The translations under genes and the position numbers were made by a program. Below the pieces are notes generated by a model, which was given only the letters and a program-made list of their open reading frames with translations, was not told where the DNA came from and made no database searches. A stretch of DNA of 35,583 nucleotides from Bacilli bacterium (lineage in GTDB: Bacteria; Bacillota_I; Bacilli_A; RF39; UBA660), in assembly GCA_900766325.1 (NCBI GenBank), contig CAAFVA010000063.1, positions 1 through 35,583 of the forward strand, in the 5' to 3' direction. Each line of letters starts with the position of its first letter. Position 1 is the first letter of the stretch. Below, piece after piece: positions 26,875 through 28,866 of this stretch.

Positions 26875-28866
26875 TTGAAAGCGAATTTACTTAAAAAATT
26901 ATATGACAAATATAGTTTAAATGGTGAAAAAATCGGTGCCCAGTTAATGAATGCTTTGCTAGATTTACCTGACAAAACCATAAAATATATCATTGATAAT
27001 GATGTTGATATTAAAATGCTGCAAAGTTACACTAGTGATGAAACGTTTAAAGGTGTTGATAGTGATGTACAAATATTGGTATTAAAAGATGATAAAGGTG
27101 CATTCTCTTTTATAAGTTCCTATGACTTTTTTAATAGACTTAGTAAGGACGAAATAATAAGGACATTAACACTTATTAATCCTTTTGTTGGTAATGAGAA
27201 AATTGAGGCTGTTAATCGCCTATTTTCGTCTTCTAATTATCTTAGTATTGAAAAAGAAAAATGGTTAAGAATTCTTGAAATAATTTTAAGTACAAAAACG
27301 TCTGACCACACTTTTTGTGCTGTAACTGTTGCAATAAATAAAGATGTAATAGTAAGTGGTAAAGTATTGGAATTAACCAAGATAGTAGCAAATGCTAAAT
27401 CTGCTGATAATGCATTTTATGCTTCAGCGGTGGCATGTAATACAGACATAATTAATAGTGGTTACGTGGTAGAGTTAACTAAAATAGTAGCAGGTGCCAA
27501 GAGTAAAAAACATGCTGAGTTATGTAAGTATATTGCTTGTGATTCGTATGTAATTAGAAGCGGCGAAGTGGTGGCATTAACTAATGTGGTTGCTGGTGTG
27601 AAAGACGAACAAAAAGTAGCTTTTGCTGTTGACCTGGTGCGTCTATTGGCACGTAAACAAGTTTTATTAAAAAAAGGATGCGTTGTAGAATTAGCGAGAA
27701 TAGTATTAAATTCAAAGTATCCAGATTTATCTATTCAGGTTGTATTTGATGAAGACGTAATCAATAGTGGGTACGTAGTAGAATTAACCAAGATAGTAGC
27801 ACATGCAAAAACCGAAAGATATGCTCAATTATCTATGAGTGTAGCTCGTGATGAAACAGTAACTAATAGCGGGAAGGTAGTAGAGTTGACCAGCATAGTT
27901 GCACACGCAAAAACTGAAAAACAAGCTAAATTAGCCACTAATTTGATTTTTGATAAAAACATAATAAATAGTGGATATGTAGTAGAAATAGTAACTATAG
28001 TAGCCGGTGCAAAAACTAAACTACAATCCAAGTTGGCTGCTAACGTAGCACAAAACGAAGCTATAATTAAAAGCGGAAAGATAGTAGAGTTAACTAGCTC
28101 TGTAGCTAGTTCAAAATATCCCAATTTAGCCTCAGATTTAGTTTTTGATTACAACGTTATAAGAAGTGGGAAAGTTCTAGAACTAATTAAGGTGGTAGCA
28201 AATGCTAAAAATTATAACATTGGTAGTTCTGCTATTTCGGTAGCTTGTGATGCCGACGTGGTAAATTGTGGTAAGGTAGTAGAGTTAACCAGTATAGTTG
28301 CAAATGCAAAAACTGAGAGACACGCTTATTATGCTTCATACGTAGCACGCAATGAAGACGTAATAGCAATTGGTAAGGTAGTAGAGTTAACCAGTATAGT
28401 TGCAAATGCAAAAAGTGATGTTCATGTTGAATTCGCTGCGACAATAGCACGTAATAAAGATGTAATAAAAACAGGTAAAGTAGTAGAGCTAACTAGTATA
28501 ATGGCAACCGCTAACATAGAAGTTGTAAAAGGCATTAATGAATTAATTAATCTAGGATTCCTAAGTTTAGTTGTTGATTTAATAGATGTATTTAATGGCA
28601 GAGTAAATCCAAACAACATATTAGCTGTAACGCAGTTACTTACAACTGGTAATTACGAAAAAAGTAGTAATCCAATAGAGAGCTTATCAAAGATATTAAA
28701 ATCAAGAAACAACTATGAAGAATTCAATATTGTATATACTGATTCCGCTTCAGATGCCGTTTTAGGTGCTAAAGAATTAGATAAGGAATTTCCTGGTATT
28801 GACATAAAAGGTGATACTTTGGTTAAAACTAGAAAACATAAAACCAAAACTGAACAAAATTCATAG
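26875..28866 (+). CDS. Cytoplasmic tandem-repeat protein with about 12 x 34-aa predicted helix-turn-helix (alpha-solenoid-like) repeats between unique N- and C-terminal domains; function unknown
   Basis: TTG start 8 nt after AGAAGG. It is 663 aa with no signal peptide. Residues about 157-550 repeat the unit DVINSGKVVELT(K/S)IVA(N/H)AK(T/S)xxxAxxxxxVAxNx. Confidence 0.75.
   Translation: MKANLLKKLYDKYSLNGEKIGAQLMNALLDLPDKTIKYIIDNDVDIKMLQSYTSDETFKGVDSDVQILVLKDDKGAFSFISSYDFFNRLSKDEIIRTLTLINPFVGNEKIEAVNRLFSSSNYLSIEKEKWLRILEIILSTKTSDHTFCAVTVAINKDVIVSGKVLELTKIVANAKSADNAFYASAVACNTDIINSGYVVELTKIVAGAKSKKHAELCKYIACDSYVIRSGEVVALTNVVAGVKDEQKVAFAVDLVRLLARKQVLLKKGCVVELARIVLNSKYPDLSIQVVFDEDVINSGYVVELTKIVAHAKTERYAQLSMSVARDETVTNSGKVVELTSIVAHAKTEKQAKLATNLIFDKNIINSGYVVEIVTIVAGAKTKLQSKLAANVAQNEAIIKSGKIVELTSSVASSKYPNLASDLVFDYNVIRSGKVLELIKVVANAKNYNIGSSAISVACDADVVNCGKVVELTSIVANAKTERHAYYASYVARNEDVIAIGKVVELTSIVANAKSDVHVEFAATIARNKDVIKTGKVVELTSIMATANIEVVKGINELINLGFLSLVVDLIDVFNGRVNPNNILAVTQLLTTGNYEKSSNPIESLSKILKSRNNYEEFNIVYTDSASDAVLGAKELDKEFPGIDIKGDTLVKTRKHKTKTEQNS
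27343..28524 (+). repeat. In-frame tandem repeat array, 102-nt (34-codon) period with two 93-nt variants
   Basis: Twelve successive units are visible in translation. Units at 28255 and 28357 share a 43-nt identical core (28270-28312 = 28372-28414). Confidence 0.9.

What the first reader, a model, noticed from the sequence alone, without database searches (positions are those of the whole stretch)
26875..28866. Orphan 34-aa tandem-repeat (alpha-solenoid-like) protein as its own transcription unit between hemW and hrcA
Seen in sequence: a 663-aa protein without signal peptide or TM. Residues about 157-550 are about 12 consecutive copies of a 34-aa unit, consensus D-V-I-N-S-G-K-V-V-E-L-T-x-I-V-A-x-A-K-T-x-x-x-A-x-x-x-x-x-V-A-x-N-x. 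The first ~20 positions are nearly invariant (loop plus a hydrophobic helix). Positions 21-29, the predicted second helix, differ in almost every unit (ADNAFYASA, KKHAELCKY, ERYAQLSMS, EKQAKLATN, KLQSKLAAN, ERHAYYASY, DVHVEFAAT). That is the pattern expected for a fixed scaffold presenting a variable binding surface. Two shortened 31-aa units carrying SKYP(D/N)L occur exactly four units apart, which hints at a higher-order super-repeat. Unique domains flank the array (1-126 and 551-663). The gene has a good TTGAAA-16-TATAAT promoter and hairpin terminators on both sides. Established knowledge: in Bacillus subtilis the order lepA-hemN/hemW-hrcA is contiguous, so this gene and the acidic protein upstream look like an insertion at the head of the heat-shock operon. 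I do not recognise the unit as TPR, Sel1, HEAT/PBS-lyase, ankyrin, PPR or TALE, although the length equals that of TPR and TALE repeats.
Basis: partly seen in the sequence, partly recalled or inferred. Interest (0 to 1): 0.72.

Follow-up and report, generated by a model that had tools for sequence, protein, structure and literature searches.

The report
Unannotated helical-repeat protein upstream of hrcA
This is a real gene for a long rod of about 14 small three-helix repeats that belongs to a very rare, fast-evolving and completely unannotated protein family of uncultured low-GC Bacilli; what it binds is unknown.

Summary
ORF 26875-28866 (TTG start, 663 aa) contains 12 clear tandem units at aa 156-561: nine of 34 aa, one of 38 and two of 31. 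Two degenerate units precede them.

AlphaFold2 models an all-alpha solenoid with high confidence (pLDDT 91.7 for the whole protein, 97.9 for three units). Each unit has three helices of about 6, 9 and 11 residues.

Pfam, NCBIfam and PADLOC give no hit. PDB sequence searches gave only weak hits to designed armadillo proteins, which a profile comparison did not support. A Foldseek search of the three-unit model finds only designed helical repeats (E >= 0.6). TAL effectors top the whole-protein search, but only because they share the 34-residue period (TM 0.12-0.17). Profile comparisons with TALE and armadillo repeats fail (0.3% probability).

The family is tiny: 82 clusters among 1.84 billion representatives, none named.

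The gene is not a recent insertion. In about ten related metagenomic loci an orthologue lies directly upstream of hrcA, and where the flanks were inspected it has its own promoter and terminators. It evolves much faster than its neighbours (29-47% identity against 70-83% for HrcA). Unit number varies, even between alleles with identical DNA.

The four-unit super-repeat is not supported. Function is unknown. My best guess is a cytoplasmic modular binding scaffold.

The parts
26326..26784 (+). Co-conserved upstream neighbour. It encodes a 152-aa protein with a very acidic, low-complexity N-terminal part (pI 4.05) and a KKKK-preceded C-terminal transmembrane helix, so it is likely tail-anchored.
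   Evidence: ORF. A counterpart with a near-identical C-terminus (KKxKAPLIIILSILLVLDIAALVIYIIGIDKVFSFIK) occurs in all seven related loci examined. No Pfam or NCBIfam hit passes a threshold.
26788..26812 (+). Intrinsic terminator of the upstream gene: the hairpin CAACGG-TTAT-CCGTTG, followed by TTATTTTTT.
   Evidence: Sequence. Fold energy is -12.0 kcal/mol, z -5.25. A hairpin plus T-run is visible at the same place in four of the five related loci (L001, L007, L008, L009); L003 has none after its upstream gene.
26820..26847 (+). Sigma-A-type promoter, TTGAAA-16-TATAAT.
   Evidence: 11 of 12 consensus matches. Promoter-like -35/-10 pairs are visible at the equivalent position in the five related loci (read by eye from the sequences).
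26862..26866 (+). Ribosome-binding site GAAGG, 8 nt before the TTG start codon.
   Evidence: Sequence. GAAGG or GGAGG occurs at the same spacing in orthologous loci.
26875..28866 (+). Coding sequence of the 663-aa repeat protein, TTG start, stop codon included.
   Evidence: ORF. Twelve homologues are alignable from residue 1. The AlphaFold2 model has mean pLDDT 91.7.
26875..27123 (+). N-terminal helical head, aa 1-83. It carries the family motif MKxxLLxxLxxxxxxxxIxxxxxxxLxxLxDxxIxxIL.
   Evidence: The motif is shared by most of the 86 full-start family members. The model shows it as helical. A profile search of PDB sequences finds no significant hit; the best is E 0.04, to a designed armadillo-type protein.
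27124..27339 (+). Two degenerate repeat units, aa 84-119 and 120-155.
   Evidence: The model shows the same short/medium/medium helix triads here: H84-88, H91-104, H108-118, then H120-124, H127-138, H143-153. The unit HMM weakly hits aa 133-153.
27340..28557 (+). Twelve canonical repeat units, aa 156-561 (nine of 34 aa, one of 38 aa, two of 31 aa). Each unit is helix 1 (DVINSG), helix 2 (VVELTKIVA), a loop (xAKT) and helix 3 (variable, with buried A25, A28, V31 and A32).
   Evidence: Unit boundaries and conservation. Helix boundaries. A 102-bp DNA period is found independently.
28558..28863 (+). C-terminal cap domain, aa 562-663. It ends in a short beta-strand and a basic tail (TLVKTRKHKTK).
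   Evidence: It is conserved in orthologues, with N578, N581 and Y594 invariant. The basic C-terminal tail is family-wide. The model shows helices plus two short strands, and the last 8 residues are disordered.
28868..28900 (+). Terminator of the repeat gene: an AT-rich 12-bp hairpin followed by a U-run.
   Evidence: Fold energy is -10.3 kcal/mol, z -3.6. An equivalent hairpin plus T-run follows the gene in L001, L008, L009 and L003; L007 has a T-run but no clear hairpin. The simple terminator scan did not call it because the stem has too few G-C pairs.
28915..28957 (+). Start of the next transcription unit. A CIRCE-like inverted repeat (TTAGCACTC-N9-CATTGCTAA, 28915-28941) overlaps the hrcA promoter (TTGACA-17-TATAAT).
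   Evidence: The promoter matches 12 of 12 consensus bases. Sequence. The same element occurs in all orthologous loci. The CIRCE consensus is quoted from established knowledge.

Best explanation
**What it is (high confidence, about 0.9).** This is a genuine, independently transcribed gene for a cytoplasmic all-alpha solenoid protein. It has three parts:
- a helical head of about 83 aa;
- about 14 three-helix repeats of 34 aa, with 31-aa variants, 12 of them canonical;
- a cap of about 100 aa that ends in a basic tail.

It is the longest member found here of an unannotated and very rare repeat family of uncultured low-GC Bacilli. In this lineage the gene permanently occupies the interval between hemW and the CIRCE-controlled hrcA promoter.

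**How it most likely works (inferred, about 0.35).** The protein is probably a modular binding scaffold.
- Helix 2 and the buried face of helix 3 form an invariant core.
- That core stacks the units into a long rod or superhelix.
- The exposed face of helix 3 (positions 22, 23, 26, 29, 30, 33) differs in every unit and between orthologues. Together these faces would form an extended, non-repetitive surface for a protein or peptide partner.
- The conserved head and cap would dock the rod to something constant.
- Whole units are gained and lost by recombination between neighbouring repeats, which changes the length of the surface.

**Shown:** the gene, its signals, the repeat anatomy, the predicted fold, the lack of known relatives, the synteny, the fast evolution and the variation in unit number.

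**Inferred:** the cytoplasmic location, that it binds anything, which face binds, and the nature of the ligand.
For: - **Gene and signals:**
- **Repeat anatomy:**
- **Fold:** the full-length model has pLDDT 91.7 and pTM 0.67. The three-unit model has pLDDT 97.9 and pTM 0.90, with three helices per unit.
- **No known relatives:** Pfam, NCBIfam, PDB sequence, PADLOC and PHROGs searches give nothing meaningful. None of 80 family members has any Pfam domain. The three-unit model's best PDB matches are designed helical repeats at E >= 0.63. The viral structure library gives nothing.
- **Rarity:** 12 hits among 5.8 billion clusters and 82 among 1.84 billion representatives. No member has a name, and the window protein is absent from the 15-billion-sequence collection.
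- **Synteny upstream of hrcA in about ten loci:**
- **Fast evolution:** 29-47% identity, against HrcA 70-83%, LepA 81-82% and DnaK 87-89%.
- **Where change falls:** substitutions between orthologues concentrate on the exposed helix-3 positions (0.5-0.64 per site). Helix 2 and K20 are conserved (0.18-0.27).
- **Unit gain and loss:** two alleles are identical at all 1239 aligned nucleotides and differ only by a 93-bp in-frame unit. A 319-aa variant is 99.7% identical to a 443-aa one. Other orthologue pairs differ by multiples of 31 aa.
Against: - No ligand, partner or phenotype is known, and no family member carries a fused domain of known function.
- Variable residues on one helix face are also what an unconstrained solvent-exposed face would show.
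- The conserved polar ladder on helix 2 and the loop (E11, K14, N18, K20, plus N/D34) is at least as good a candidate for the functional surface.
- I could not obtain model coordinates, so I do not know which face is concave or exposed.
- Unit number changes freely, and the surface is not conserved between orthologues. That is awkward for binding one defined partner.
- The copy-number differences come from short-read metagenome assemblies, which can miscount tandem repeats. The longest exact inter-unit repeat is only 40 nt, though.
Confidence: 0.45

Rival explanations
1. It is a modular nucleic-acid-binding array in the manner of TAL effectors or PUF proteins. Each 34-aa unit would contact one base or phosphate. 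The invariant Lys (K20) would contact the backbone, and a variable residue (position 18, or the helix-3 face) would provide specificity.
For: - The period is 34 aa, and TAL effectors are the top whole-protein Foldseek hits (E 9e-4 to 4e-2).
- There is one highly conserved Lys per unit, and position 18 just before it varies (N/G/H/S/D/Y).
- The repeat region of the window protein is basic (net +7, pI 8.85), and the family has a basic C-terminal tail.
Against: - The whole-protein TALE hits have TM 0.12-0.17 and rmsd about 36 A, so they reflect only the shared period.
- The confident three-unit model has no TALE among its top 50 PDB matches.
- Profile-profile comparison with TALE repeats gives 0.3% probability.
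- The unit profile finds no TALE or PUF among PDB sequences even at E <= 10.
- The unit has three helices, not two, and its variation is spread over a helix face rather than concentrated in a two-residue loop.
- The family's median pI is 5.6, and many members are acidic.
Confidence: 0.1
2. It works together with the co-conserved upstream gene product, the acidic, disordered, tail-anchored membrane protein. The solenoid's conserved Lys/Asn ladder would bind the extended acidic chain, in the way armadillo proteins bind extended peptides. This would tether the rod at the membrane.
For: - The small gene lies upstream of the repeat gene in all seven loci examined, with a highly conserved membrane anchor and a variable acidic linker. 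It is immediately upstream in six of them; in L003 two other genes intervene.
- The repeat array of the window protein is basic, and the neighbour has pI 4.05.
- The three-helix unit resembles the armadillo repeat in layout.
Against: - A terminator separates the two genes in the window and in four of the five related loci.
- In L003 two unrelated genes lie between them.
- The length of the acidic linker does not track the repeat number (152/663, 133/383, 149/533, 106/412, 107/574, 108/606, 114/540 aa).
- Distant family members in other genomic contexts have no such neighbour.
- Many family members are themselves acidic.
Confidence: 0.12
3. It is a proteostasis accessory tied to the heat-shock operon, for example a co-chaperone, substrate adaptor or regulator of HrcA or DnaK.
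For: The gene lies immediately upstream of hrcA-grpE-dnaK in about ten loci. This includes orthologues with as little as about 28-29% identity.
Against: - The gene has its own sigma-A-type promoter and terminator and lies outside the CIRCE-controlled unit.
- More distant family members lie between recA and rny, between truA and rplM, after folD, and before a gyrB/parE-type gene. The family is therefore not linked to chaperone genes in general.
- Its evolution is far faster than that of the chaperones it would serve.
Confidence: 0.08
4. It is a largely unconstrained, expendable repeat protein whose sequence and length drift, with no specific ligand: a structural filler or a gene on its way out.
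For: - Evolution is very fast, unit number is labile, and paralogues turn over. One example is a 52-codon remnant of a second family member beside the gene in L003.
- The family is extremely rare.
Against: - The reading frame is intact in every locus seen.
- Core positions, the head and the cap are conserved across members that are only 15-30% identical.
- Promoter, ribosome-binding site and terminator recur in most of the related loci inspected.
- Indels are always whole units and in frame.
Confidence: 0.08

Closest known systems
Armadillo (ARM) repeat proteins, such as importin-alpha, beta-catenin and designed dArmRPs
   Same: - Both are all-alpha solenoids built from a three-helix unit with a short helix 1 followed by two longer helices.
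- The hydrophobic pattern is similar: xVIxxG for helix 1 and xLxxLVxLL for helix 2.
- hhalign places the helices in that register.
- The cap region aa 552-603 and the head give weak sequence hits to designed ARM proteins.
   Different: - The unit is 34 or 31 aa, not about 42.
- There is no Pfam Arm hit.
- The profile-profile probability is 0.3% or lower.
- No ARM protein appears among the top 50 structural matches of the three-unit model.
- The weak PDB hits are one marginal match counted several times over identical designed repeats.
TAL effector repeats (Xanthomonas TALEs and TALE-likes)
   Same: - Both have a 34-residue period and long arrays of near-identical helical units.
- TALEs are the top whole-protein Foldseek hits.
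   Different: - The unit has three helices, not two, and there is no hypervariable two-residue (RVD) loop.
- TM is 0.12-0.17.
- The three-unit model has no TALE among its 50 best PDB matches.
- The hhalign probability is 0.3%.
- No TALE repeat is found in Pfam or PDB sequence searches.
De novo designed helical repeat proteins (DHRs) and their derivatives
   Same: They are the best local structural matches to the three-unit model, with TM up to 0.58 (5cwf, 7upp, 9y59, 8v2d). The similarity is regular, idealised stacking of short helices.
   Different: The E-values are not significant (>= 0.63). DHRs have two-helix units and no evolutionary relationship to this protein.
TPR / Sel1 and HEAT / PBS-lyase repeats
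   Same: TPR repeats are also 34 aa, and all of these belong to the alpha-solenoid class.
   Different: Those units have two helices. None gives a Pfam hit at E <= 1, and none appears in the PDB profile or structure searches.

Membership tests
TAL effector / TALE-like repeats | Tandem repeats of 33-35 residues | tested here: met
   The modal spacing is 34 aa in the window protein and across the family (174 of about 350 spacings).
TAL effector / TALE-like repeats | Sequence or profile similarity to the TALE repeat | tested here: not met
There is no Pfam hit at E <= 1 and no TALE in the PDB profile search at E <= 10.
TAL effector / TALE-like repeats | Two-helix unit with variation concentrated in a two-residue loop (positions 12/13) | tested here: not met
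   The unit has three helices. Variable positions 21-24, 26, 29, 30 and 33 lie along helix 3.
TAL effector / TALE-like repeats | Matching three-dimensional repeat geometry | tested here: not met
   Whole-protein TM is 0.12-0.17 with rmsd about 36 A. The three-unit model has no TALE among its 50 best PDB matches.
TAL effector / TALE-like repeats | Sequence-specific DNA binding | not testable with these tools
   This needs gel-shift or SELEX experiments.
Armadillo repeat | Three-helix unit (short H1, then H2 and H3) stacked into a superhelix | tested here: inconclusive
   Helix count and lengths fit: 6, 9 and 11 residues.
Armadillo repeat | Unit of about 42 residues that matches the Arm profile | tested here: not met
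   The unit is 34 or 31 aa. There is no Pfam Arm hit. hhalign gives 0.3% and 0.1% probability.
TPR / Sel1 / HEAT / PBS-lyase / PPR / PUF / ankyrin | A match to the family's Pfam profile | tested here: not met
   hmmscan of the window protein at E <= 1 returns only three unrelated sub-threshold hits. None of 80 family members has a relevant Pfam hit.
The unnamed family defined here (head + 34/31-aa three-helix units + cap with basic tail) | N-terminal head motif MKxxLLxxL...LxDxxIxxIL | tested here: met
   The window N-terminus aligns with the family.
The unnamed family defined here (head + 34/31-aa three-helix units + cap with basic tail) | Units with the core x-D-V-L-x-S-G-x-A-L-E-L-V-K-I-I-A-N-A-K ... 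A..A..VA.N | tested here: met
   The window has 12 units.
The unnamed family defined here (head + 34/31-aa three-helix units + cap with basic tail) | C-terminal strand plus basic tail (..T-x-V-K-x-R-K-K..) | tested here: met
   The window ends in TLVKTRKHKTKTEQNS, and most family members have an equivalent tail.

The most novel reading that the evidence does not exclude
The family may be a previously unrecognised bacterial modular recognition system. Each three-helix unit would read one element of an extended polymer through its variable helix-3 face. The conserved Lys/Asn ladder would hold the polymer's backbone. The polymer could be an unfolded peptide, such as the acidic tail-anchored neighbour, or a nucleic acid. 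Strain-level gain and loss of whole units would then retune the target. If so, this would be a new programmable helical-repeat scaffold alongside TALE, PUF, PPR and armadillo repeats.
Probability: 0.1. Interest if true: 0.8.

Novelty: new variant of a known kind. Interest (0 to 1): 0.45.

Why it matters
- **A new repeat type.** If the model is right, this is a new, very regular three-helix repeat of 34 or 31 aa. It has no Pfam model, no solved relative and no annotation in any public source searched. It would add a class to the helical-repeat catalogue.
- **A possible engineering scaffold.** AlphaFold2 predicts the repeat with near-ideal confidence, so it could serve as a scaffold for protein engineering.
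- **A biological puzzle.** This is one of the fastest-evolving genes at the locus (the other two unannotated ORFs diverge about as fast), and its length varies, yet it is held in place next to the heat-shock operon in a lineage of uncultured Bacilli. That combination usually marks a protein that interacts with something that is itself changing.
- **The limit.** No function can be assigned yet, so its present value is as a well-characterised lead rather than a discovery.

Tried and rejected
1. **TALE-like array: rejected.** TAL effectors topped the whole-protein Foldseek list, and I could align the helices by eye. The three-unit model, hhalign and the PDB profile search all failed to support it.
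2. **Shortened armadillo repeat: not supported.** Weak PDB hits from the cap and head regions suggested it. hhalign did not support it, and neither did Foldseek.
3. **Four-unit super-repeat: not supported.** Identity at offset 4 is no higher than at other offsets.
4. **Phage or defence origin: no support.**
   - PHROGs gives only a weak match to a family of unknown function (phrog_2529, E 1.8e-6, no single stretch significant).
   - PADLOC finds nothing for the window protein.
   - A scan of viral contigs finds nothing.
   - The viral structure library finds nothing.
5. **Domain fusions as a functional clue: none.** No Pfam domain occurs in 80 family members.
6. **Acidic linker length against repeat number: no correlation**.
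7. **The search for homologous proteins with the three-unit profile A3 returned nothing at all,** not even known members. I treat this as a limitation of the word-seeded search, not as evidence.
9. **The genome-collection and metagenome scans used peptide patterns that the window protein itself does not match.** Their counts (2 loci and 1 locus) are therefore lower bounds.
10. **Literature searches found nothing relevant,** either for the repeat motif or for '34-residue repeat / alpha-solenoid / Firmicutes'.
11. **dN/dS on the variable face was not attempted.** The only orthologue pairs with DNA in hand are either identical or too diverged (70-75% aa identity or less) in an AT-rich genome.
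Full report
**1. The observation**

The ORF at 26875..28866 (+) exists as described: TTG start, 663 codons. A GAAGG ribosome-binding site lies 8 nt upstream. The start is confirmed by homologues that align from residue 1.

Anchoring on the motif G-x-V-V-E-L gives 12 units, at aa 162, 196, 230, 268, 299, 333, 367, 401, 432, 466, 500 and 534. Nine units are 34 aa long, one is 38 and two are 31. Tandem Repeats Finder sees the 102-bp period independently.

Within the unit:
- G7, V9, V10, E11, L12, V16, A17 and K20 are present in 10-12 of the 12 copies.
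- Positions 21-24, 26, 29 and 30 are the most variable.
- A25, L27, A28, V31 and A32, inside the 'variable' helix, are semi-conserved.

Unit-to-unit identity at offset 4 is no higher than at offsets 1 or 5, so there is no super-repeat. The units are old: they are 44-73% identical at the nucleotide level. The window contains no other copy of the repeat.

**2. Structure**

AlphaFold2, run with the 13-sequence family alignment, gives an all-alpha model with mean pLDDT 91.7 and pTM 0.67. A three-unit fragment, run with a 44-sequence alignment, gives pLDDT 97.9 and pTM 0.90.

Each unit has three helices:
- helix 1, about 6 residues (DVINSG);
- helix 2, 9 residues (VVELTKIVA), followed by a four-residue loop (xAKT);
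- helix 3, 11 residues.

The same helix triads continue N-terminally to about aa 84. There are therefore two further degenerate units, and the unique head is only about 83 aa. The last unit is followed by a cap of about 100 aa with two short strands and a disordered basic tail.

There is no signal peptide and no convincing transmembrane segment. I therefore could not determine which face is concave, or the shape of the superhelix.

**3. Comparison with known families**

Sequence searches find no significant relative:
- Pfam at E <= 1, NCBIfam and a PDB sequence search give no meaningful hit.
- A profile built from three-unit blocks of 44 family members finds nothing significant among PDB sequences.
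- PADLOC finds nothing for the window protein, and PHROGs gives only a weak match to a family of unknown function.

The structural searches need care. The whole-protein Foldseek search puts TAL effectors first (E 9e-4 to 4e-2). But TM is only 0.12-0.17 and rmsd about 36 A. The confident three-unit model has no TALE in its top 50 matches. Its best matches are de novo designed helical repeats, at non-significant E-values (>= 0.63, TM <= 0.58). hhalign against TALE repeats gives 0.3% probability. The TALE resemblance is therefore only the shared 34-residue period.

An armadillo-like reading was suggested by the three-helix unit and by weak PDB hits from the cap and the head to designed ARM proteins. 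It also fails on profile comparison, at 0.3% and 0.1% probability. The viral structure library gives nothing.

**4. The family**

Only 12 proteins match among 5.8 billion clusters, and only 82 among 1.84 billion 50%-identity representatives. None of the ten family members looked up by exact sequence carries a name from any source, none of the 80 scanned has a Pfam domain, and the window protein itself is absent from the 15-billion-sequence collection.

All members share three features:
- a head motif, MKxxLLxxL...LxDxxIxxIL;
- units with a family-wide period of 34 aa (174 spacings) or 31 aa (56 spacings), with the core ..VL.SG.ALELVKIIANAKGEYQA.YA..VA.N;
- a C-terminal strand plus a basic tail.

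Across the family the conserved helix-3 positions are 24, 25, 28, 31 and 32, and the variable ones are 22, 23, 26, 29, 30 and 33. These are the two opposite faces of one helix. Helix 2 is conserved on all sides, including the polar residues E11, K14, N18 and K20.

**5. Genomic context**

The window is an ordinary housekeeping region of a spore-forming low-GC Firmicute. The gene order is gpr, spoIIP, a class I (Trp/Tyr-type) tRNA synthetase, lepA, a 250-aa unknown ORF, hemW, the 152-aa acidic tail-anchored protein, the repeat gene, then hrcA, grpE, dnaK, pepF and dnaJ.

Orthologues of the repeat gene lie immediately upstream of hrcA in L001, L003, L005, L006, L008, L009, L016, L018 and L019. 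In L007 the position is the same; the truncated downstream gene was not identified, but a CIRCE-like element and the hrcA-type promoter precede it. Two of these loci come from 'uncultured Bacilli bacterium' MAGs.

In the window and the five related loci whose flanks I inspected (L001, L003, L007, L008, L009), the layout is:
- a hairpin terminator after the upstream gene (window and four of the five loci; none is visible in L003);
- a -35/-10 promoter and a ribosome-binding site before the repeat gene (all);
- a terminator after it (a clear hairpin in the window and four loci; L007 has only a T-run);
- a CIRCE-like element overlapping a consensus hrcA promoter (all).

The gene is thus an independent transcription unit and a long-standing resident of this interval, not a recent insertion.

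More distant family members sit in other conserved intervals: recA|rny, truA|rplM, after folD, and before a gyrB/parE-type gene. The link to hrcA is therefore specific to this lineage and not a property of the family.

**6. Evolutionary behaviour**

Against the window, orthologues of the repeat protein are 29-47% identical. By comparison, HrcA is 70-83%, LepA 81-82%, DnaK 87-89%, HemW 58-62% and GrpE 56-66% identical.

Substitutions between orthologues concentrate on the exposed helix-3 positions.

Unit number varies in whole, in-frame steps:
- Orthologues measure 319, 355, 359, 383, 412, 443, 533, 540, 574, 606 and 663 aa.
- Two alleles from independent assemblies are identical at all 1239 aligned nucleotides and differ only by one 93-bp unit.
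- A 319-aa form is 99.7% identical to a 443-aa form, a difference of four units.
- In contrast, all ten full-length members of the P0006 cluster are 383 aa, so the number is not hypervariable everywhere.

Paralogues also turn over. L016 has two family genes in tandem before hrcA. L003 keeps a 52-codon remnant, 88% identical to the C-terminus of P0022, next to its intact gene.

One caveat applies: all of these are short-read assemblies, which can miscount tandem repeats.

**7. Interpretation**

*Firmly shown:*
- The gene is real and independently transcribed.
- It encodes a confidently predicted three-helix alpha-solenoid.
- It belongs to a very rare family that no public source searched has annotated.
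- It is fixed upstream of hrcA in one lineage.
- It evolves fast and changes length by whole units.

*Inferred:* function. I commit, at about 0.35, to a cytoplasmic modular binding scaffold. Its head and cap would dock to a constant partner, and its repeat array would offer a long, non-repetitive surface.

*Rival explanations:*
- a nucleic-acid-reading array (0.10);
- a complex with the co-conserved acidic membrane protein (0.12);
- a proteostasis accessory (0.08);
- near-neutral drift (0.08).

The remaining probability is 'something else'. The conserved polar ladder on helix 2 is an equally good candidate for the functional face.

**8. Verdict**

This is a new repeat family within the known alpha-solenoid class, so I rate it 'new variant of a known kind'. 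I score interest at 0.45. It is a clean, well-delimited lead with unusual evolutionary behaviour, but it has no functional handle yet.

Noticed in passing
window 26326-26784: A 152-aa protein with a highly acidic, low-complexity N-terminal part and a KKKK-preceded C-terminal transmembrane helix. The membrane anchor is almost identical in seven related loci, while the acidic linker varies in length and sequence. It has no family assignment.
   Followed up: partly
window 24434-25186: A 250-aa ORF between lepA and hemW whose stop overlaps the hemW start. It has no Pfam or NCBIfam hit and a Cys-rich C-terminal motif (KYCDDCYN...C). It is conserved in L001, L007 and L009 (33-37% identity). In L008 and L003 unrelated ORFs of 144 and 158 aa occupy the same position.
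   Followed up: partly
window 32456-34279: An M3-family oligoendopeptidase (PepF-like) gene lies between dnaK and dnaJ, inside what is normally the contiguous hrcA-grpE-dnaK-dnaJ operon. The same arrangement occurs in L001, L003 and L018.
   Followed up: partly
window 28915-28941: The CIRCE-like operator upstream of hrcA has a divergent right arm (TTAGCACTC-N9-CATTGCTAA rather than ...GAGTGCTAA). It overlaps the -35 box of a perfect 12/12 promoter. The divergent arm, with minor base differences, recurs in all related loci.
   Followed up: partly
L003 9902-10057; L016 1-1800: L003 carries a 52-codon remnant, 88% identical to the C-terminus of a different family member (P0022), between its intact repeat gene and hrcA. 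L016 has two family genes in tandem before hrcA. This indicates duplication and decay of paralogues at this site.
   Followed up: yes
L006 117-1448 versus L009 6001-7239: Two assemblies carry the gene with zero mismatches over 1239 nt and a single 93-bp in-frame indel equal to one repeat unit. This is either strain-level copy-number polymorphism or an assembly artefact.
   Followed up: partly
window 9718-10605: A PD-(D/E)XK 'transposase'-family (PDDEXK_2) gene sits among housekeeping genes, between a Mur ligase gene and uvrC.
   Followed up: no
window 13770-16610: mutL (14826-16610) is not preceded by mutS. Upstream of it are a 200-aa ORF with no Pfam hit (13770-14372) and a GH25 lysozyme-like gene (12489-13646).
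   Followed up: no
window 21153-21513: A 360-nt gap lies upstream of the class I (Trp/Tyr-type) tRNA synthetase gene. Rfam finds no T-box there, and finds no RNA family at gathering threshold anywhere in the 35.6-kb window.
   Followed up: no
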